This document shows, in pieces, positions 4,714 through 60,679 of a stretch of DNA of 64,000 nt. A program made the translations under genes and the position numbers. The DNA comes from a virus (taxonomy: Duplodnaviria > Caudoviricetes): positions 192,001 through 256,000 of the IMG/VR virus record IMGVR_UViG_3300029288_005873; one strand, written 5' to 3'. Under the pieces are notes generated by a model. That model saw nothing but the letters and a program-made list of their open reading frames with translations, was not told the DNA's origin and searched no databases. Position 1 is the first letter of the stretch. Each line of letters opens with the position of its first letter.

Positions 4714-4786
4714 TGGACCAGCGACAGGATTCGAACCTGCGTCCCCAGTCGGTTGACCAGGATCCTAACCTCTAGACGACGCTGGA
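4714..4786 (-). tRNA. tRNA-like RNA / pseudo-tRNA (Glu/Gln-type body, 6-nt anticodon loop, no assignable anticodon)
   Basis: CCAGCG/CGCTGG acceptor, GTCTAGAGGTTAGGAT D arm, GCAGG-TTCGAAT-CCTGT T arm, CCA; loop CAACCG. Confidence 0.65.
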
Positions 4787-14980: not shown

Positions 14981-15286
14981 GCCTATCTCCTGTGTTTGCC
15001 AGGATTGGGATTTCCCCAAGGACGGATCCCTTCTCCTGGACTTTTTTACTACACTAAGGTCCGCCGTCATTCGAACCCAACACGGCAATCAATACGGAGA
15101 CACCCTTGTCTAGACCGTGTTCCAGATAAGGGTCGCCCGTCGCTGCGGACGGATCACATTCCATCATGGCAAAGGTTGTGCTCGAGAGCCTTGACTCAAT
15201 GCCTAGTTTGTCTCTCCATCACTGACCGACCTTGGGTATCAGTCGCAGCCAGCCAACACACCCCTGTTGGCTAGGATTAGAATTAG

Positions 15287-15605
15287 TGAGCCCAGCAGGA
15301 TTCGAACCTGCGACCAACTGGTTAACCTGCCACACTTGCTTTCACAAGCCAACTTTTCGGAGTTGTTGTGGTCTGGACCATATCTTCACCCTCAACATTA
15401 CTTGGTCGGGTGTTCTGCTCATGGCCTCTGAGGACTCCCAAAATATTCTGGGTTGCCTGCGGATTATCCAATCTTTAACATTTTTACTCATAGTGAGTAG
15501 TTAAAGCTCTAAGGACGTTCCCGCATATCGCAGAATTCATTTCATATATTACTATATGAACGCTCCAATCGAAGCCAGTTGCTCTGCCAACTGAGCTATG
15601 GGCCC
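15287..15605 (-). tRNA. tRNA-Lys(UUU), intron-containing (exons 15572-15605 and 15287-15325)
   Basis: GGGCCCA..ACTGG-CTT^TTAA-CCAGT..GCAGG-TTCGAAT-CCTGC-TGGGCTC-A. Confidence 0.93.
15326..15571 (-). ncRNA. group I intron in tRNA-Lys anticodon (34/35)
   Basis: P1 GCUU^C/GGAGC with U.G at the splice site, R CUCAGAGGCCA, S AAGAUAUGGUCC, terminal G. Confidence 0.9.
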
Positions 15606-25737: not shown

Positions 25738-26080
25738 TGGTGGGCCTGTCCGGACTCGAACCGGAAACCCGCGGTTTATGCAAACTATCTACGTGTTTCC
25801 ACGCCGCTTTTCAGCGTTTGTAGTCTGGACTATCCCTTCCCTTTCGGGTCTGCCGTCTAGTCTCTACACCTTCAGGATTTCTCCCGCTTGGCTCGGGATT
25901 GGCATGAGAGTTTCCTCTTTTAGCTTTCCCCGACTTTGACAGAATTCACTAACACACTTGCCTCGGTTGCCCGCACATAATATGTTAGAGTCCCAAGTAG
26001 TGAATCATGCGCCAAAAAAGCGTTTAGATTTCAACTACTTAATCAAGACCGCCGCTCTAACCTAATTGAGCTACAGGCCC
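25738..26080 (-). tRNA. tRNA-Ile2(CAU), intron-containing (exons 26046-26080 and 25738-25780)
   Basis: GGGCCTG/CAGGCCC acceptor with C4-G69 and C5-G68, loop CT^CATAA, CCA; tilS adjacent. Confidence 0.88.
25781..26045 (-). ncRNA. group I intron in tRNA-Ile2 anticodon loop (33/34)
   Basis: R GUAGAGACUA, S GGGAUAGUCC (P7 GACUA/UAGUC), extended P1 ending GGGAC, terminal G. Confidence 0.9.
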
Positions 26081-27257: not shown

Positions 27258-27261
27258 TAGT

Positions 27262-27637
27262 TGGACGTGCCGGAAGTCGAATCCGGGTCCGCAACATCTT
27301 GATCGTGAAGTCATCCACATGCTTGGTTTCCATTTACTATTCCAGCAGGCGGGAAACGCGCCCATACTGAAAAGACCCATTGAGGCATTTTCGGTGGAAG
27401 TCTCAGGGTTTGAGTAGCTTCCTTAGTAGCCTCTCCCTACAATCCCTGTCCGATGACGCCGATCCCCAGAGTCACAGGGCCGGAGCCCGAGGTCAGCGGA
27501 TGCTAGGCAGCTGCCAGCATCTGGTTCGCGTTGTTGTTCGCGTTTGTTGTCTGTCCCAGTTTTTTCATGGCAGCCTGGAACACCTGCCAGCATGCACTCC
27601 AGTCTCTCAATACCACGTCGATACCAAATTCACGCCC
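27262..27637 (-). ncRNA. ssrA: tmRNA, tag ANNNANQMLAAA* (27503-27541)
   Basis: 5' GGGCGTGAA..TCGAC, 3' GGACCCGGATTCGACTTCCGGCACGTCCA, G3.U70 pair, GCATG/CATGT helix, tag ending LAAA. Confidence 0.95.
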
Positions 27638-30493: not shown

Positions 30494-30875
30494 TTACAGG
30501 AGATATTCCATTTCCTTTGCTACGGATTCCGCCAGGCTGGCATCCCATGGTTCGATAGGATCAGATATCCGACCGTCTCGCCGAAGGCGCCACCACCGCC
30601 CAATTTTCATTGCCTCATCTAAGGACAGAATAGAGACGGCATTTGCTACACCGAACTGGGTGGAGGTAATATCCACAACCATGTCATCGAGTAGTATGAA
30701 CCAATGACCTGGAACATGTCCAATGTCCACCTTGATTCCAGCTGCCCGAGCATGTTTGAAGATGAACGATGTCGCGTCTTTACACCACCCTCTAAGGTTG
30801 CTGGGATGGCTGCGTTTATTAGCTACACGTTCAGATTTTACATACCATGGACGTGAGCTTTTCGAGATCGGTCAT
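30494..30875 (-). pseudogene. transglutaminase-like paralog with N-terminal frameshift
   Basis: MTDLEKL.. start is out of frame with ERVA..GWC..GHWF..VDITSTQFG. Confidence 0.65.
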
Positions 30876-30915
30876 AACTATCCCCTTGGAGAAATTGTTT
30901 CCGACCACATCGCAT

Positions 30916-31043
30916 TGGTTGGGTCGCCAGGACTCGAACCTGGATCTTTCAGGCTTATGTGCCTGCCCGAGTTCACGGGATTCCAGCTCTAGCTGGTTAT
31001 GTTGCCATAGGCAACCTACAAGTCGCCATTACACCACGACCCA
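30916..31043 (-). ncRNA. 128-nt multi-armed tRNA-like RNA
   Basis: TGGGTCG/CGACCCA acceptor + ACCA, CCAGG-TTCGAGT-CCTGG T arm, four hairpins between D-like and T arms. Confidence 0.75.
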
Positions 31044-31044
31044 C

Positions 31045-31117
31045 TAGGGGCGGAGGGAATCGAACCCACGACCGACGGATTAGAAGTCCGTCGCTCTATC
31101 CGCTGAGCTACGCCCCT
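31045..31117 (-). tRNA. tRNA-Arg(UCU)
   Basis: AGGGGCG/CGCCCCT, ACGGA-CTTCTAA-TCCGT, A20. Confidence 0.93.
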
Positions 31118-31268
31118 ACAACTTCTTCCTCTCTGCTACCAGCAAATCGGTCGCATTGACTAACTTCATTGCTGCTAGCCGTTCGCTTTCCGTAAGGTTC
31201 TCTCTACGCACTAGCTTCTCAAGAAGATCGGCTAGCGCTTTCAGTTCGACATCAGACATTTGCTGCTC

Positions 31269-31823
31269 CTACGGGTTCCCTAGGATCATGTCGGCACCGC
31301 GAAGAATGCCTAGGTCAAATGGACTGCCATCCCCACCAGATCTCAGCTTCTCTGCCATCTGCGAATATGAAAGACGCATCAGGCGTCCACCTGACACAAC
31401 GCTGATCCTACATTTGTTCACCTTACATACTTCACACAAAGATGCCAATTCTTTGCGGTTTGTGACCCTATCTACTTTTCCATGTGCGGTATTGGAGGAT
31501 GAGCATGGGTACATATCGCTAGGATCCACAGATATGGTTCCTTCTCCTGCGATTGCTAGTCCACTCTCAACAACCTCAAGAGTTCTCCCAATCAAAGCGG
31601 CGGTTACCATCTTTGCTTCGGTGGAAACACAGTCGATCTTTCCGATTCCAGCCTCCGCCAAGGCGCCAAGAATTGCTTTCGCAAACTTCTCGGCATCTTC
31701 AGCCGTAAGGCTGAGCATTGCACGCCCAGGCACCTCCATGCTTAGCGTAGGTCTGTCCGCCCTCCCACTTAGCTTGACGTCGTGGAAGGGACCATATCGT
31801 CCCAAGTTGATGTCGATTCTCAT
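31269..31823 (-). CDS. hypothetical protein
   Basis: 184 aa ORF, GGAGG RBS, ATGA overlap. Confidence 0.6.
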   Translation of the reverse strand: MRIDINLGRYGPFHDVKLSGRADRPTLSMEVPGRAMLSLTAEDAEKFAKAILGALAEAGIGKIDCVSTEAKMVTAALIGRTLEVVESGLAIAGEGTISVDPSDMYPCSSSNTAHGKVDRVTNRKELASLCEVCKVNKCRISVVSGGRLMRLSYSQMAEKLRSGGDGSPFDLGILRGADMILGNP

Positions 31824-55669: not shown

Positions 55670-56389
55670 CTACCCCAGCCCCCAGCGTTTAGAAAGAACA
55701 TCAGCGATCTCTTGAGCAAATTTTGCCCCGGCTTCTAAATCCTTGGATTCGTTGGTTTTAGTACAACGGCATTCTTTGCCACAATCTCCGCCGCCACAAC
55801 AATTCGGCATCGTTGCCTGATCTAATTCCTTTTCTTCACAACAAGAATGGCAGCATTTCTTCTCAAGCGCTTTCCTAAAGGCTTTCTTAAAAACGTTTAT
55901 CATTTCTTTATCGTGAGTAAACTCCTCATCTAGCCATTCATTAGTCTGACAGCTGAATTTTGGACCACAACACTCATTACAATTTTTTCCACAACGATTT
56001 TTACTACAACATGTAAGAGGGAAGAGGGGATCAACTGGATCAAGAAGATCTTGTTCTTCCAACTCTTTAAGGGTTTTTAGGATGGGTTCCTCTGAACTCT
56101 TCTTGGTCAAATCTTTGCGCTTAATAATTCCTTTTTCACCTGAAGCATCAAGGATATGGTTCCAATTAGGATAAGGTAGGTTTGGAATTGAGTTAGGCCA
56201 AACCATAGGATTGAGCTTATCAGCTTGCTGATGAAGCATTGTCGCAAACTCACGCAAATCATCAGCCACCTCTTGAATTGGAACCCGAATAGGCTTAGGG
56301 GGTCGTGGGGGTTCTTTGGTTACGGGAAGCGGACCAACCACGCGGTCGAGAATAGCGTTAACGATTTTTTTCAATAATTCCGTGATCAT
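55670..56389 (-). CDS. Cys-rich hypothetical protein
   Basis: Repeated CC clusters; N-terminus related to 56393..56746. Confidence 0.6.
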   Translation of the reverse strand: MITELLKKIVNAILDRVVGPLPVTKEPPRPPKPIRVPIQEVADDLREFATMLHQQADKLNPMVWPNSIPNLPYPNWNHILDASGEKGIIKRKDLTKKSSEEPILKTLKELEEQDLLDPVDPLFPLTCCSKNRCGKNCNECCGPKFSCQTNEWLDEEFTHDKEMINVFKKAFRKALEKKCCHSCCEEKELDQATMPNCCGGGDCGKECRCTKTNESKDLEAGAKFAQEIADVLSKRWGLG

Positions 56390-57772: not shown

Positions 57773-60679
57773 TTAGCTAACTCTCCAAATTTCTATGCGG
57801 GCTCTAGTAATGCTAACGGTGCCGCCCGTAGGTGATGCAAATTGAATTAGGAAAGTTTTTGGGGTTCCAGTAAATACGACATACTGAAATCCATCAAGTT
57901 GTTGTCTATCAGTGGTCAGTGTCGTCAATCTACCTTGTATGAAACAAAGTTCTACCGCATCAGTAGAATTATAAAGTCTGGCAGAGACATCTCTTGATCC
58001 AGTACCACCCACTATAACTGCGAGTTCGGCATGACAACCAACTCTATAAGTTCCAGCAAGTGCTGCCGTTGTGAGGGTTAATTTTGTCTGGAAAGCAGCA
58101 TTTGTAGTTGTAGAAGCGCCTTCTGAAGCAGCATTTGTAAAATCCCTACCAAACATTGAAAGTATATTTCCCAAAGTAGCATAAACTTTTACTTGACCAG
58201 CGGCACTGTCTTCCATCAAAAGAACATCTGCAGATACTGGAATTGTTTTCTGAGTAAAAGTAGTAAAATCACCTGCCCCTCTTGTCAATCCAGAATGGAC
58301 ATGATCGGACCTAGAGAAGGTTGAAGCTGATCCTGTAGCATTATCTGTAGAGACAGCAACGGGACTGCCTGCCAATAAGGCATGCTGATGATCTGATCGA
58401 GCCAAGCTAGTAGCAACTCCCTCATCAGTCGTGTTACCGATAGCCAAGGGTGAAGGGGCAGCTGTTGAAATGTCGTGCTTATGATCAGATTTTGCTATCT
58501 CATTAGTTGTTCCAACCGATGCCAACGAACGTTCAACAGGTAGGGGTGGAGTCGATGTAAATGGAAGTTGCGCAGTGGCAACTTGCGTCATAGCATTAAG
58601 CCCACAAAATCCATTAGCAAGATTCTTTTCTGCCCTTAATTGATATTGTTGGTGGTCATTATCAGCGAGTCCAGAAAGAGAACCATGGTCAGTAATGATT
58701 GTTCCTGCTGCCGCTAGTTGTCCGAGTTTGGGGCGCTGATCATCAATTGTTGTAATATCTATAGCTCCTCTCTGTACTATAATTCCCGCAAGACGAAGCG
58801 CCACATTATTAAATACATTTGGTGGGTTAGGATTGTTTAATGCTAAAATGGCAGAATCGTATACTTGCTGCCCATATACTACATGATATTCTGTACCACC
58901 GTCATTTGAGGTCAAATAAACAAGATCACGTTTGAATTTACCACTAGGGACTAGTTGAATAGTACCAGAACCTATAAAATTATATGCATCATAACCATCA
59001 GGATTTATAGCAGTTTGTCCTGGTGTTGCCATCCAGCCCCCAGAAGCTGTACGATTCCAATAAGTGAACGTTATTGGAGAATGGGCATCCGCTGTTTTAG
59101 GTACGTTGTATATATAATAACTACCAGCATCAACGCTTATTTGTAAAGAAGGCGAACCATATTTAGTGACTGCTGTTCCTGATACAGAAATCGGACCCAC
59201 AACATCACGAGCATAGATAAAACTAGCTGGAGTTGGCTGAGCTAAAATAGCATGTCTTGAACCTAGGATAGTTACATTTCCGCCGTCTGTAGAGGCGACT
59301 GCAAAAGATATGCTATTGTATGGAGACGTCACAAAAGGGCTGGCAGAAAATACACCATTGACATCACAAATTACGAAGGCGATGGGCATATTTGGATCCA
59401 ATGTCAGGTTGGTTGAAGGCCAGACAAGTCTACTTAGAAGACGCCCATCATTAATAAAACCATAGCCTTCCGAAATATTTACGGTAAGACCAGAAACCCT
59501 TGTAACTTCACCACCTTGGACAACACCAGTGTTGCCATTCGCTTTTGTATAACTGACAAGAGGAATGGTTGCAGAAATAGGACCACACCAAATTTCACCA
59601 CGAACCACATTTCCATAATCTAATGTGTGATTATCATCCACAAATGAAGCAACAAAACGTGTACCTTCTGGAACTGAAATAAGATCACGACGTAAAAATC
59701 CACCAGATACAGAAATAATACACGTATCCGTATCAGAAAGTATATCCCAAGTAAAAACATCTTCAAAAATAAAGCAAGAAGCTAGATATGCTTCTGTATC
59801 AATACTTGTTGGACCAATATGGATAGCATTTGTCCCTAAAGTAAAAGCACAAGAAATCAAAACAACAAAGGCGCCATTATCAACAAAAATACCATTGGTA
59901 CCGCCTGCTCCATATAGACTATCTGTCAAATATAGAACGGAATCGTCTCCTTGTACTTCAAAGCCGTTCCTACAAACCACTCCATAAGGTATAATACAAT
60001 TTGTAGCTAAAACAGTTCCACTATTAATTTGTAGAAAAGTCTGCATAGGATTACTGTTGTTTGTAGATACTTCAGTAACCTGTAGATTTCCTGAAACAGT
60101 ATTACATGTTATGCCATAATATCCATCTAATATAATAGAATTATCAACACGAAAAGGTGTGGGATTGATATCATTATATACTATTGCCGCACATCCGTTG
60201 CCAGTAGGACCCACAATATCAATATCGGTTATTCCTGAAGAATGTGATCCAGTTATAAAATTGTCATAATTATCAAGAGTTGCTACTACAACAGAATGCC
60301 CATGCCCGCCCTTACCTATAAGGGAGACGTAAGGTTTTAATGTGAAGGGCTGTTCGAAATATACCCCAGGAGCAACATAAATCGCATATTGATCGAGAGC
60401 TGAGGCTGTTACAGAATCTATAGCCGATTTGATCGATGTATATTCTCCCGTAGGAGCTACGGTTATAGTATGATACCGTTCACTAAGGATTGGATCATTT
60501 TCCGTTAAATAGCGATTTGTAGCTGAGGGTGTTCCGGACGAACCAGCTAATGCTGCTTTTTGTCCATCAGTTGGTACATTTCCAGATAAAAGTTCAATAC
60601 TTGAAACTCTTCCATCCAAACCCACTATTTGGTCTCGTAAACCATAAGAGCCTGGCCAAACTTTTGGTCCAATTGCCAT
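57773..60679 (-). CDS. tail fibre/spike-like structural protein with pectin-lyase-type beta-helix
   Basis: TVAPTGEYTSIKSAID..IYVAPGVY.E cap motif, beta-helix repeats, three (A/S)(R/K)SDHxH repeats. Confidence 0.7.
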   Translation of the reverse strand: MAIGPKVWPGSYGLRDQIVGLDGRVSSIELLSGNVPTDGQKAALAGSSGTPSATNRYLTENDPILSERYHTITVAPTGEYTSIKSAIDSVTASALDQYAIYVAPGVYFEQPFTLKPYVSLIGKGGHGHSVVVATLDNYDNFITGSHSSGITDIDIVGPTGNGCAAIVYNDINPTPFRVDNSIILDGYYGITCNTVSGNLQVTEVSTNNSNPMQTFLQINSGTVLATNCIIPYGVVCRNGFEVQGDDSVLYLTDSLYGAGGTNGIFVDNGAFVVLISCAFTLGTNAIHIGPTSIDTEAYLASCFIFEDVFTWDILSDTDTCIISVSGGFLRRDLISVPEGTRFVASFVDDNHTLDYGNVVRGEIWCGPISATIPLVSYTKANGNTGVVQGGEVTRVSGLTVNISEGYGFINDGRLLSRLVWPSTNLTLDPNMPIAFVICDVNGVFSASPFVTSPYNSISFAVASTDGGNVTILGSRHAILAQPTPASFIYARDVVGPISVSGTAVTKYGSPSLQISVDAGSYYIYNVPKTADAHSPITFTYWNRTASGGWMATPGQTAINPDGYDAYNFIGSGTIQLVPSGKFKRDLVYLTSNDGGTEYHVVYGQQVYDSAILALNNPNPPNVFNNVALRLAGIIVQRGAIDITTIDDQRPKLGQLAAAGTIITDHGSLSGLADNDHQQYQLRAEKNLANGFCGLNAMTQVATAQLPFTSTPPLPVERSLASVGTTNEIAKSDHKHDISTAAPSPLAIGNTTDEGVATSLARSDHQHALLAGSPVAVSTDNATGSASTFSRSDHVHSGLTRGAGDFTTFTQKTIPVSADVLLMEDSAAGQVKVYATLGNILSMFGRDFTNAASEGASTTTNAAFQTKLTLTTAALAGTYRVGCHAELAVIVGGTGSRDVSARLYNSTDAVELCFIQGRLTTLTTDRQQLDGFQYVVFTGTPKTFLIQFASPTGGTVSITRARIEIWRVS

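What the first reader, a model, noticed from the sequence alone, without database searches (positions are those of the whole stretch)
30916..31043. tRNA-like RNA with four arms where the anticodon arm should be
Seen: perfect 7-bp acceptor (U1-A72), ACCA end, perfect T arm and a GUGUAAUGG D-like segment. Between them lie four hairpins: GUUGCC-UAU-GGCAAC, CCAGC-UAGA-GCUGG, CCCG-UGAACU-CGGG and CAGGC-ACAUAA-GCCUG (6-nt loop containing CAU). It starts 1 nt after tRNA-Arg(UCU), so it is probably co-processed. Intact pairing argues against decay. Inference: a decoy for anticodon nucleases, a Y-RNA-like scaffold, or a tRNA with an unknown small intron.
Basis: partly seen in the sequence, partly recalled or inferred. 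Interest (0 to 1): 0.82.

Follow-up and report, generated by a model that had tools for sequence, protein, structure and literature searches.

The report
Phage tRNA mimic with extra hairpins
A 442-kb uncultured phage encodes, right behind a normal arginine tRNA, a 128-base RNA that keeps the top half of a tRNA, carries three inserted hairpins and has no usable anticodon loop, so it is probably a tRNA look-alike rather than a decoder; its job is unknown.

Summary
On the minus strand (31043 to 30916) lie a perfect 7-bp acceptor stem, A73-CCA, a canonical T arm, a GUGUAAUGG D-type segment and four perfect hairpins. The element starts 1 nt after tRNA-Arg(UCU) and folds better than all 200 shuffles.

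No Rfam family matches. ARAGORN calls it only when introns are allowed, and that call is forced. I found two relatives, both in metagenomic phage-like contigs: L227:1518-1638, in an island of 23 tRNAs, and the more distant L274:691-818. L227 shares an identical 17-mer (GUGUAAUGGCGACUUGU), further short blocks and A73-CCA. Its acceptor and T stems are kept through compensatory changes.

By homology, hairpins 1-3 are an insertion in the D loop of a CAU-type tRNA, not a replacement for the anticodon arm. Hairpin 4 overlaps the distal D-stem strand (GCAC) and what remains of the anticodon stem. None of the three has a canonical 7-nt, U33 anticodon loop (6, 4 and 8 nt).

Most likely it is a non-decoding tRNA mimic matured by the tRNA-processing enzymes. 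Its function is unproven. An intron-bearing pre-tRNA, a Y-RNA-like role and decay remain as weaker rivals. Five related phage records lack it.

This scan has noted similar expanded tRNA-like RNAs in other phage genomes.

The parts
30916..31043 (-). Whole 128-nt tRNA-like RNA gene (RNA position n = window 31044 - n)
   Evidence: Sequence; fold z = -3.87; ARAGORN calls it only with introns allowed; the single-sequence CM re-finds it at 171.7 bits.
31037..31043 (-). Acceptor stem 5' strand, UGGGUCG (RNA 1-7)
   Evidence: Pairs 7/7 with 30920-30926. In L227 the stem is CGUUUUG/CAAGACG, with both sides changed at 4 of 7 pairs and none broken.
31018..31034 (-). Conserved 17-mer GUGUAAUGGCGACUUGU (RNA 10-26): D-stem 5' strand, D-loop GG, then a conserved stretch with no partner found
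   Evidence: Identical in L227:1527-1543. Only 13 of the 17 nt were imposed by the search pattern.
31001..31015 (-). Hairpin 1, GUUGCC-UAU-GGCAAC (RNA 29-43). Present only in the window element
   Evidence: L227 has a clean 16-nt gap here. It competes with the MFE alternative GGCGACU/GGUUGCC plus UAUG-GCAA-CAUA.
30983..30996 (-). Hairpin 2, CCAGC-UAGA-GCUGG (RNA 48-61), preceded by the conserved CAUAA
   Evidence: L227 has a hairpin at the same place, GAUCGG-UUAGU-UCGGUC, after CAUGA and before GAAUCCC. The stem sequence differs but the pairing is kept.
30966..30979 (-). Hairpin 3, CCCG-UGAACU-CGGG (RNA 65-78), preceded by AAU
   Evidence: L227 has GAAUCCC-UCCGAUC-GGGAUUU at the same place. 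The block (G)AAUCCC...CGGG is shared.
30959..30962 (-). GCAC (RNA 82-85): candidate distal 3' strand of the D stem, pairing with GUGU 10-13
   Evidence: In L227 the MFE pairs GUGU with GCAC and so closes the insert. GCAC-G-CC is shared by L227 and L274. In the window this pairing is possible but costs about 8 kcal/mol relative to hairpin 4.
30950..30965 (-). Hairpin 4, CAGGC-ACAUAA-GCCUG (RNA 79-94): 6-nt loop with A where U33 should be. A degenerate anticodon arm, or an alternative to the D stem
   Evidence: Sequence and MFE. An ordinary phage tRNA(CAU) has CUGCU-CUCAUAA-GGCAG. L227 has CCUGCC-CACC-GGCAGG here.
30927..30943 (-). T arm, CCAGG-UUCGAGU-CCUGG (RNA 101-117)
   Evidence: L227 has GCAGG-UUCGAUU-CCUGC, with one compensatory pair.
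30916..30926 (-). Acceptor 3' strand CGACCCA, discriminator A73 and encoded CCA (RNA 118-128)
   Evidence: Only a minority of this phage's tRNA genes encode CCA. A73-CCA is also present in L227.
31045..31117 (-). tRNA-Arg(UCU), immediately upstream on the same strand
   Evidence: Rfam RF00005, 71.3 bits. ARAGORN places it at 31044-31118.

Best explanation
It is a real gene for a tRNA-derived RNA that no longer decodes.

Origin (inferred): it most likely descends from a CAU-type (Met-like) phage tRNA.

Maturation (inferred): it is transcribed together with tRNA-Arg(UCU). RNase P cuts at U1, 1 nt after the Arg tRNA, and the encoded ACCA gives a tRNA-type 3' end.

Anatomy (shown by sequence and homology): the product keeps the acceptor/T-arm half of a tRNA and the D-loop GG that forms the elbow. 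Its D loop carries a conserved single-stranded stretch (CGACUUGU...CAURA) and two or three inserted hairpins. Its anticodon arm is crippled.

Function (inferred): tRNA-handling proteins should still recognise it, but the ribosome cannot use it as an adaptor. It would therefore act as a tRNA mimic. One option is a scaffold that displays the extra hairpins and the conserved stretch to a binding partner. The other is a decoy for factors that recognise the acceptor end or elbow of tRNAs.
For: Intact tRNA top half:
- A 7/7 acceptor stem, a canonical T arm, GG in the D loop and A73-CCA.
- It abuts tRNA-Arg(UCU) on the same strand, inside a tRNA/tmRNA cluster.

Homolog L227:1518-1638, in an island of 23 tRNAs:
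- It shares the identical 17-mer and the blocks CAU-R-A, GAAUCCC, CGGG..GCAC..GCCUG and A73-CCA.
- 5 of its 12 acceptor and T pairs changed on both sides, and none is broken.
- Hairpins 2 and 3 are kept at the same places with different stem sequences.
- Its MFE is a cloverleaf in which GUGU/GCAC closes a 55-nt D-loop insert, followed by G26 and a 6-bp stem with a 4-nt loop.

Third member, L274:691-818: it has the same GUGU..insert..GCAC-G-CC layout and an 8-nt loop with A33.

Likely ancestry: an ordinary tRNA(CAU), L273:16329-16402, shares 15 of the first 18 nt and shows the ancestral order ACAC-G-CUGCU-CUCAUAA-GGCAG.

No member has a 7-nt loop with U33.

The hairpins are not dispersed repeats.
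Against: - Only three members are known, and the conserved blocks are invariant, so nothing covaries inside the insert apart from hairpins 2 and 3.
- There are no expression data.
- The CM built from the element scores L227 (38.7 bits) only slightly above unrelated long tRNA-like genes (up to 36.6 bits). The homology therefore rests on the shared blocks.
- In the window element, energy favours hairpin 4 (-49.4) over the homology-based D stem (-41.5 kcal/mol).
- Five related phage records (terminase 62-83% identical) lack the element, so it is dispensable or recently acquired.
- No binding partner or target was identified.
Confidence: 0.55

Rival explanations
1. It is a pre-tRNA(CAU) with a ~52-nt intervening sequence. 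The insert is removed, and a Met- or Ile2-type tRNA is ligated and used in translation.
For: - I ran ARAGORN on all 1330 single-deletion derivatives. Deleting RNA 31-82 up to 34-85 gives a 76-nt 'tRNA-Met(cat)' scoring 111.3. That lies within the range of this genome's real tRNAs, 100-127.
- UAGGU (26-30) and CAGGC (79-83) can both pair with GCCUG.
- The phage has an Rnl2-type RNA ligase.
- Lak megaphage tRNA genes are reported to have unexplained introns (PMC6784885).
- Two other tRNAs in this window carry group I introns.
Against: - Many different deletions score equally, giving Thr, Pro, Arg, Met or Ile calls, so no unique splice product exists.
- The best products have A, G or no nucleotide at position 33 and only a weak D arm.
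- There is no group I signature in the element, and no RtcB or splicing endonuclease in the phage.
- The homolog L227 cannot yield a canonical anticodon loop by any excision, because its stem closes a 4-nt loop.
- The phage already has tRNA-Met(CAU) and an intron-bearing tRNA-Ile2(CAU).
Confidence: 0.12
2. It is a Y-RNA-like partner of a phage Ro60-type protein. The tRNA-like module and the hairpins would tether an RNA-surveillance particle.
For: - Earlier notes of this scan place a Ro60-like locus with tRNA-mimic RNAs about 140 kb away in the same genome. Two 138-nt tRNA-like genes do lie there.
- A contig of the L227 lineage encodes a TROVE/vWA_Ro60 protein.
- Some jumbo phages are known to carry Ro/TROVE proteins with tRNA-like partners (PMC7824862).
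Against: - No YrlA (RF02553) match, even at E <= 10.
- The Pfam TROVE and vWA_Ro60 models find nothing in this genome.
- The element is not next to any such gene.
- In YrlA the RNA ends form the Ro-binding stem. Here they form a normal acceptor stem with CCA.
- The 138-nt RNAs of the other locus have a different insert, in the variable region.
Confidence: 0.13
3. It is a decaying or non-functional tRNA gene remnant. Its hairpins would be the by-product of a recent insertion or recombination in a fast-turning tRNA island.
For: - Absent from the five related records.
- The neighbouring ORF is an orphan.
- All stems are pure Watson-Crick with no G-U pair, as a young sequence would be.
- A homing-type endonuclease gene lies nearby.
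Against: - 32 of 32 stem pairs are intact, and the fold z-score is -3.87.
- A diverged homolog keeps the same architecture through compensatory changes, plus an identical 17-mer.
- The hairpins are not repeats.
Confidence: 0.1

Closest known systems
Ordinary phage/bacterial tRNA(CAU), e.g. L273:16329-16402 (Rfam RF00005)
   Same: It shares the acceptor stem, U8, the GUGU-AAUGG D region, the T arm, A73-CCA and a position in a tRNA array. 15 of the first 18 nt are identical, and CAUAA-G is still visible in hairpin 4.
   Different: The element has a 60-70 nt insert after the D-loop GG, no local D stem, and a 6-nt loop lacking U33. RF00005 does not report it even at E <= 10.
tRNA-like domain of tmRNA (RF00023); this phage's own copy lies at window 27259-27637
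   Same: Both have an acceptor, a T arm and CCA but no anticodon. Both have a D-loop analogue without a local stem. Both have the motif GG-(0-3 nt)-CGAC after the loop; the phage tmRNA reads GGUAUCGAC.
   Different: The element has no G3-U70, no tag reading frame, no pseudoknots and no helix-2 partner for CGAC. There is no tmRNA match, only 11.5 bits to the permuted model, which spans the junction with tRNA-Arg.
'Enigmatic' introns of Lak megaphage tRNA genes (Devoto et al. 2019, PMC6784885)
   Same: Both are oversized tRNA genes in huge phages that are found only when intron-tolerant settings are used, with inserts that match no known intron class.
   Different: The Lak cases were read as introns in otherwise typable tRNAs. 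Here the insert is in the D loop, the anticodon loop is defective, and no intron-free allele is available for comparison.
Bacterial Y RNA YrlA (RF02553)
   Same: Both are non-coding RNAs with a tRNA-mimicking module that tRNA enzymes can recognise (my knowledge; PMC7824862).
   Different: The topology is opposite: in YrlA the RNA ends form the Ro-binding stem. There is no RF02553 match, and no TROVE gene was detected by Pfam.
Engineered tRNA scaffolds for recombinant RNA expression (Ponchon and Dardel; recalled from my own knowledge, not checked here)
   Same: A tRNA frame gives correct processing and stability to foreign hairpins carried inside it.
   Different: Those are man-made and place the cargo in the anticodon arm. 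Here the cargo is natural and sits in the D loop.

Membership tests
Canonical tRNA (Rfam RF00005) | Scores at or above the family's gathering threshold (29 bits) as a cloverleaf | tested here: not met
   cmscan at E <= 10 over 30700-31300 reports only tRNA-Arg and nothing on 30916-31043. Default ARAGORN does not call it.
Canonical tRNA (Rfam RF00005) | Acceptor stem, T arm with a UUCRANY-type loop, and a discriminator plus CCA-type end | tested here: met
   A 7/7 acceptor stem, CCAGG-UUCGAGU-CCUGG and ACCA.
Canonical tRNA (Rfam RF00005) | 7-nt anticodon loop with U33 on a 5-bp stem | tested here: not met
   Hairpin 4 has the 6-nt loop ACAUAA, with A before CAU. The homologs have 4-nt and 8-nt loops.
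Canonical tRNA (Rfam RF00005) | Local D stem of 3-4 bp | tested here: not met
   GUGU...CGAC gives only 2 pairs. Only the distal GCAC (82-85) can pair, across a 68-nt insert.
tmRNA (RF00023 / RF04321) | G3-U70 alanine identity pair, tag reading frame, pseudoknots and a family-level score | tested here: not met
   The third pair is G3-C70. No match reaches threshold; the best is 11.5 bits against a threshold of 47.
YrlA / Y RNA with Ro60 | RF02553 match and a Ro60/TROVE gene in the neighbourhood | tested here: not met
   No RF02553 match. PF05731 and PF25045 find nothing in the 442-kb record.
tRNA with a group I intron | RF00028-type catalytic core inside the gene | tested here: not met
   Rfam finds group I only at 15356-15581 and nothing in the element. 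The insert is about 52-68 nt, too short.
tRNA with a protein-spliced (bulge-helix-bulge) intron | Splicing endonuclease and RtcB-type ligase available, and a unique excision that restores a cloverleaf | tested here: not met
   No PF01974 or PF01139 in the phage. Host enzymes were not testable. The deletion scan gives many equally scored products. The bulge-helix-bulge motif itself was not formally searched.
Expanded tRNA-like RNAs with a D-loop insert (informal group: window, L227:1518-1638, L274:691-818) | GUGU...insert...GCAC-(G)-stem layout, a non-canonical anticodon loop, and an intact acceptor and T arm | tested here: inconclusive
   The layout is present in all three. However, the D-stem pair is invariant, so there is no covariation, and in the window it competes with hairpin 4.

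The most novel reading that the evidence does not exclude
The element is one member of an undescribed class of natural 'tRNA-scaffold' RNAs. In this reading, phages use a tRNA frame so that the host's tRNA enzymes cut out and stabilise the RNA. The RNA carries protein-binding hairpins and a conserved single-stranded motif, and its anticodon loop is deliberately disabled. It would act as a decoy or sponge in phage-host conflict, for example against host factors that recognise the tRNA elbow or CCA end, or proteins that bind the displayed hairpins.
Probability: 0.3. Interest if true: 0.8.

Novelty: new variant of a known kind. Interest (0 to 1): 0.55.

Why it matters
Standard tools (tRNAscan-type models, default ARAGORN, Rfam) miss or mislabel such genes. 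tRNA islands of large phages therefore hold more RNA genes than annotations show.

If these RNAs are processed but cannot decode, they would be a phage tool that exploits the host's tRNA machinery for something other than translation. They would also be natural counterparts of the tRNA scaffolds used in RNA engineering.

The case also bears on the 'enigmatic introns' reported for megaphage tRNAs. At least some oversized tRNA genes may be permanent expansions rather than introns.

Tried and rejected
Pattern scans:
- The same acceptor plus T loop in IMG/VR found 0 hits.
- The loops of hairpins 3 and 4 plus the T loop found 9 hits, all random.
- TAATGGCGACTTG plus the T loop found 0 hits.
- The D-region pattern in GTDB genomes found 19 hits, none tRNA-like by CM.
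- The same pattern in metagenomes found 27 hits. Only L227 is tRNA-like. L224 and L245 look similar at first but have no acceptor stem.

Other searches:
- blastn against INPHARED phages matched only the tRNA-Arg part. L227's element also has no match there.
- Synteny failed. The neighbouring ORFs have no relatives in IMG/VR, in the 5.8-billion-protein set or in related records.
- I fetched the related records G001-G005 whole. They hold no ortholog by blastn, ARAGORN or CM.
- Contigs of the L227 lineage, reached through its release-factor-like protein, yielded L274 only. L250-L252 and L273 hold no member.

Ideas rejected:
- Dispersed palindrome or MITE.
- Antisense target of the 17-mer within the window.
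- tmRNA-like helix 2: a 5-bp pairing of CUUGU with AUAAG exists in the window element but not in L227.
- Membership in the large ~120-nt family found: its insert has a different layout.

Tool failures:
- The script machine was lost. A planned numerical comparison with all genome tRNAs was therefore not done.

Full report
**Observation**

The window is bases 192001-256000 of a 441,904-bp IMG/VR virus record.
- Acceptor UGGGUCG/CGACCCA, 7 of 7 pairs, U1-A72.
- UG, then GUGUAAUGG.
- Four perfect hairpins: GUUGCC-UAU-GGCAAC, CCAGC-UAGA-GCUGG, CCCG-UGAACU-CGGG and CAGGC-ACAUAA-GCCUG.
- T arm CCAGG-UUCGAGU-CCUGG.
- 3' end ACCA.

tRNA-Arg(UCU) scores 71.3 bits with Rfam and ends at 31045. One spacer G follows, and then the element begins. 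The minimum-energy fold is -53.8 kcal/mol against -38.7 +/- 3.9 for dinucleotide shuffles (z = -3.87), and none of 200 shuffles folds as well. The four hairpin sequences occur nowhere else in the genome, so they are not a dispersed palindromic repeat.

**Context**

All RNA genes here lie on the minus strand. They include a tmRNA, several tRNAs, and two tRNAs interrupted by group I-sized introns. With introns allowed, ARAGORN reports the element as 'tRNA-Gly(ccc)' with a 31-nt intron and a long extra arm, which is a forced fit. It also finds two unrelated 138-nt tRNA-like genes at genome positions 80437-80574 and 81263-81400.

Only a minority of this phage's tRNA genes encode CCA, and the element is one of them. 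No sigma-70-like promoter or strong terminator brackets the element itself. Co-transcription with tRNA-Arg is therefore inferred from the 1-nt spacing alone.

**Known families**

Rfam 15 gives no match on the element, even at E <= 10. That covers tRNA, tmRNA, YrlA and group I introns.

**Relatives**

A first pattern scan (D-loop motif, 70-100 nt, T loop) returned 81 viral loci. Forty-seven of them hold 113-141-nt tRNA-like genes with a 6-7-bp acceptor stem. Oversized tRNA-like genes are thus common in phage tRNA islands. Their inserts, however, are laid out differently from this one.

Phages related by terminase (62-83% identity) were fetched whole. They have other expanded tRNA-like genes but no ortholog of this one, by blastn, ARAGORN or a covariance model. 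The neighbouring ORFs are orphans.

A metagenome scan for GTGTAATGGCGAC plus a T loop gave 27 hits, of which one is tRNA-like: L227:1518-1638. It lies in a 14-kb contig with 23 tRNA genes.

It shares with the window element:
- The identical 17-mer GUGUAAUGGCGACUUGU. Four of its bases lie beyond the pattern, and G7 and U8 are also the same.
- The blocks CAU-R-A, GAAUCCC, and CGGG...GCAC...GCCUG.
- A73-CCA.

Its acceptor stem (CGUUUUG/CAAGACG) and T stem differ from the window's at 5 of 12 pairs, always on both sides and never breaking a pair. It has hairpins at the positions of hairpins 2 and 3 with different stem sequences, and a clean 16-nt gap where hairpin 1 sits.

I then followed the L227 lineage through its short release-factor-like protein. 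This gave a third, more distant member, L274:691-818 (128 nt). It shares GGGAU(U)AGCACGCC with L227.

The single-sequence model scores L227 at 38.7 bits, but unrelated long tRNA-like genes reach 36.6 bits. The case for homology therefore rests on the shared blocks, not on the model score.

**Anatomy by homology**

An ordinary tRNA(CAU) in an L227-related contig (L273:16329-16402) reads UGGGGAU-UG-GUGU-AAUGGUA-ACAC-G-CUGCU-CUCAUAA-GGCAG. Fifteen of its first 18 nt match the window element.

L227 keeps the same order of parts but has 55 nt between the D-loop GG and GCAC. It continues GCAC-G-CCUGCC-CACC-GGCAGG. Its minimum-energy fold is a cloverleaf in which GUGU pairs with GCAC (-45.0 kcal/mol, z = -2.9).

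The family is thus a CAU-type tRNA with a large insert in the D loop and a shrunken anticodon loop. The window element lines up block for block: CGGG-CAG-GCAC-AUAA-GCCUG against CGGG-AUUUA-GCAC-GCCUGCC. On this reading:
- Hairpins 1-3 are the D-loop insert.
- GCAC (RNA 82-85) is the distal D-stem strand.
- GCCUG is G26 plus the start of the old anticodon stem.

Hairpin 4 (79-83/90-94) uses part of GCAC, so it excludes the D stem. Energy favours hairpin 4: -49.4 against -41.5 kcal/mol for the fixed structures, and -47.0 for the best fold with the D stem enforced. Homology favours the D stem. With three sequences and an invariant GUGU/GCAC, I cannot decide between them, and a switch between the two folds is possible.

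**Decoding and the intron test**

No member has a 7-nt loop with U33. The loops are ACAUAA (6 nt, A before CAU) in the window, CACC in L227, and AAAUUGAG in L274.

I deleted every stretch of 19 nt or more whose removal left a product of 68-95 nt and ran ARAGORN on the 1330 products. The best were 76-95-nt 'tRNAs' of five different identities, scoring about 110-112. Among them was a tRNA-Met(cat) from deleting RNA 31-82 up to 34-85. Real tRNAs of this genome score 100-127. An intron is therefore not excluded by score. But there is no unique product, the loop still lacks U33, and the D arm stays weak. L227 cannot be rescued by any excision.

The phage has no RtcB and no splicing endonuclease, though it does have an Rnl2-type RNA ligase.

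**Most likely mechanism**

Shown:
- An intact acceptor/T-arm half with an encoded CCA.
- A conserved 17-mer.
- Insert hairpins kept at the same places in a diverged relative.
- Defective anticodon loops in all members.

Inferred:
- RNase P and 3' processing release a 128-nt RNA.
- Factors that read the tRNA top half bind it, but the ribosome cannot use it to decode.
- The conserved single-stranded stretch and the hairpins are a binding surface.

I therefore read it as a non-decoding tRNA mimic, acting as a scaffold or a decoy (confidence 0.55 for this general statement). A decoy for anticodon nucleases specifically is unlikely, because the loop is not conserved.

The Y-RNA reading lacks support. 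There is no YrlA match, and the Pfam TROVE and vWA_Ro60 models find nothing in this genome. However, earlier notes of this scan describe a remote Ro60-like locus elsewhere in the genome, and a contig of the L227 lineage does encode TROVE/vWA_Ro60.

**Comparison and novelty**

The nearest described things are:
- Ordinary tRNA(CAU).
- The tRNA-like domain of tmRNA. It shares the stem-less D loop and a GG-CGAC motif, but none of the defining features.
- YrlA.
- The 'enigmatic introns' of Lak megaphage tRNA genes (PMC6784885).

I found no paper describing this layout. Earlier reports of this scan describe comparable expanded tRNA-like RNAs in other phage genomes, so this is a new variant within a recurring but barely described theme.

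**Limits**
- No expression data.
- Only three members.
- The script machine was lost.

Noticed in passing
L008:564-682, L012:8428-8548, L015:627-749, L028:1288-1409, L048:6086-6203 and about 20 more (loci): A widespread family of ~120-nt tRNA-like genes in phage tRNA islands. Each has a normal D arm (GUGU-AAUGGUA-GCAC) and a conserved insert (GGUUAUCCUG-N-CAAGGAUAC...CAGCA) enclosed by a covarying helix. The hairpin next to the T arm carries anticodon-like loops that vary and often fit the discriminator, for example GCC with U73 and GUU with G73. RNAalifold on 24 sequences supports the acceptor, D arm, T arm and first hairpin.
   Followed up: partly
L024:8-132, L070, L046:715-838, L007, L025 (loci): A second insert type at the same place, between positions 28 and 29 of the anticodon stem: a 7-9-bp helix enclosing a GNRA-type hairpin. 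It occurs in tRNA-like genes whose loops read UCG and GUU.
   Followed up: no
window 4715-4786 (-): A 72-nt tRNA gene (Rfam 31.3 bits; ARAGORN 'tRNA-???') whose anticodon arm is a 6-bp stem closed by a 4-nt loop, AACC. This resembles the CACC stub of L227 and would be a second anticodon-less tRNA in the same phage.
   Followed up: partly
genome G000:C1 80437-80574 and 81263-81400 (-), outside the window: Two paralogous 138-nt tRNA-like genes with a ~66-nt insert after the anticodon arm. They share the motifs CAAAAAGCA and GCGAA. Homologs exist in the related record G001 (57982-58117, 58988-59126).
   Followed up: partly
G001:C1:70885-71007 and 56024-56139 (related phage record): A tRNA-Asn-like gene (U1-A72, G73) has a 48-nt hairpin-closed insert inside the anticodon, between positions 35 and 36, and sits directly after tRNA-Arg(ACG). 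Another gene has an acceptor/T-arm minihelix nested in its anticodon loop.
   Followed up: no
window 15286-15605 (-) and 25738-26080 (-): tRNA-Asn(GUU) and tRNA(CAU) genes are each interrupted by an intron of about 250 nt. Rfam confirms the first as a group I intron (56.7 bits). The CAU tRNA encodes CCA.
   Followed up: partly
L227:2026-2147 (+): A 122-nt tRNA-like gene with a Gln-type acceptor (U1-A72, G2-C71, G3-C70), ACCA, and a 6-nt loop UUUGAU, one base short of a Gln anticodon loop.
   Followed up: no
L078:1246-1373 (-): A 128-nt tRNA-like gene with a hairpin insert in the D loop but a normal 7-nt loop (AUUAGGA, anticodon UAG). D-loop inserts therefore also occur in genes that may still decode.
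   Followed up: no
L227:4041-4685 and relatives P0003-P0121: A large family of short (~200 aa) release-factor-like proteins (PCRF plus RF-1 domains) is encoded beside tRNA islands. The contigs look like phage and also carry rIIB, RNA ligase, a CCA-adding enzyme and, in one case, TROVE/vWA_Ro60 and Thg1.
   Followed up: no
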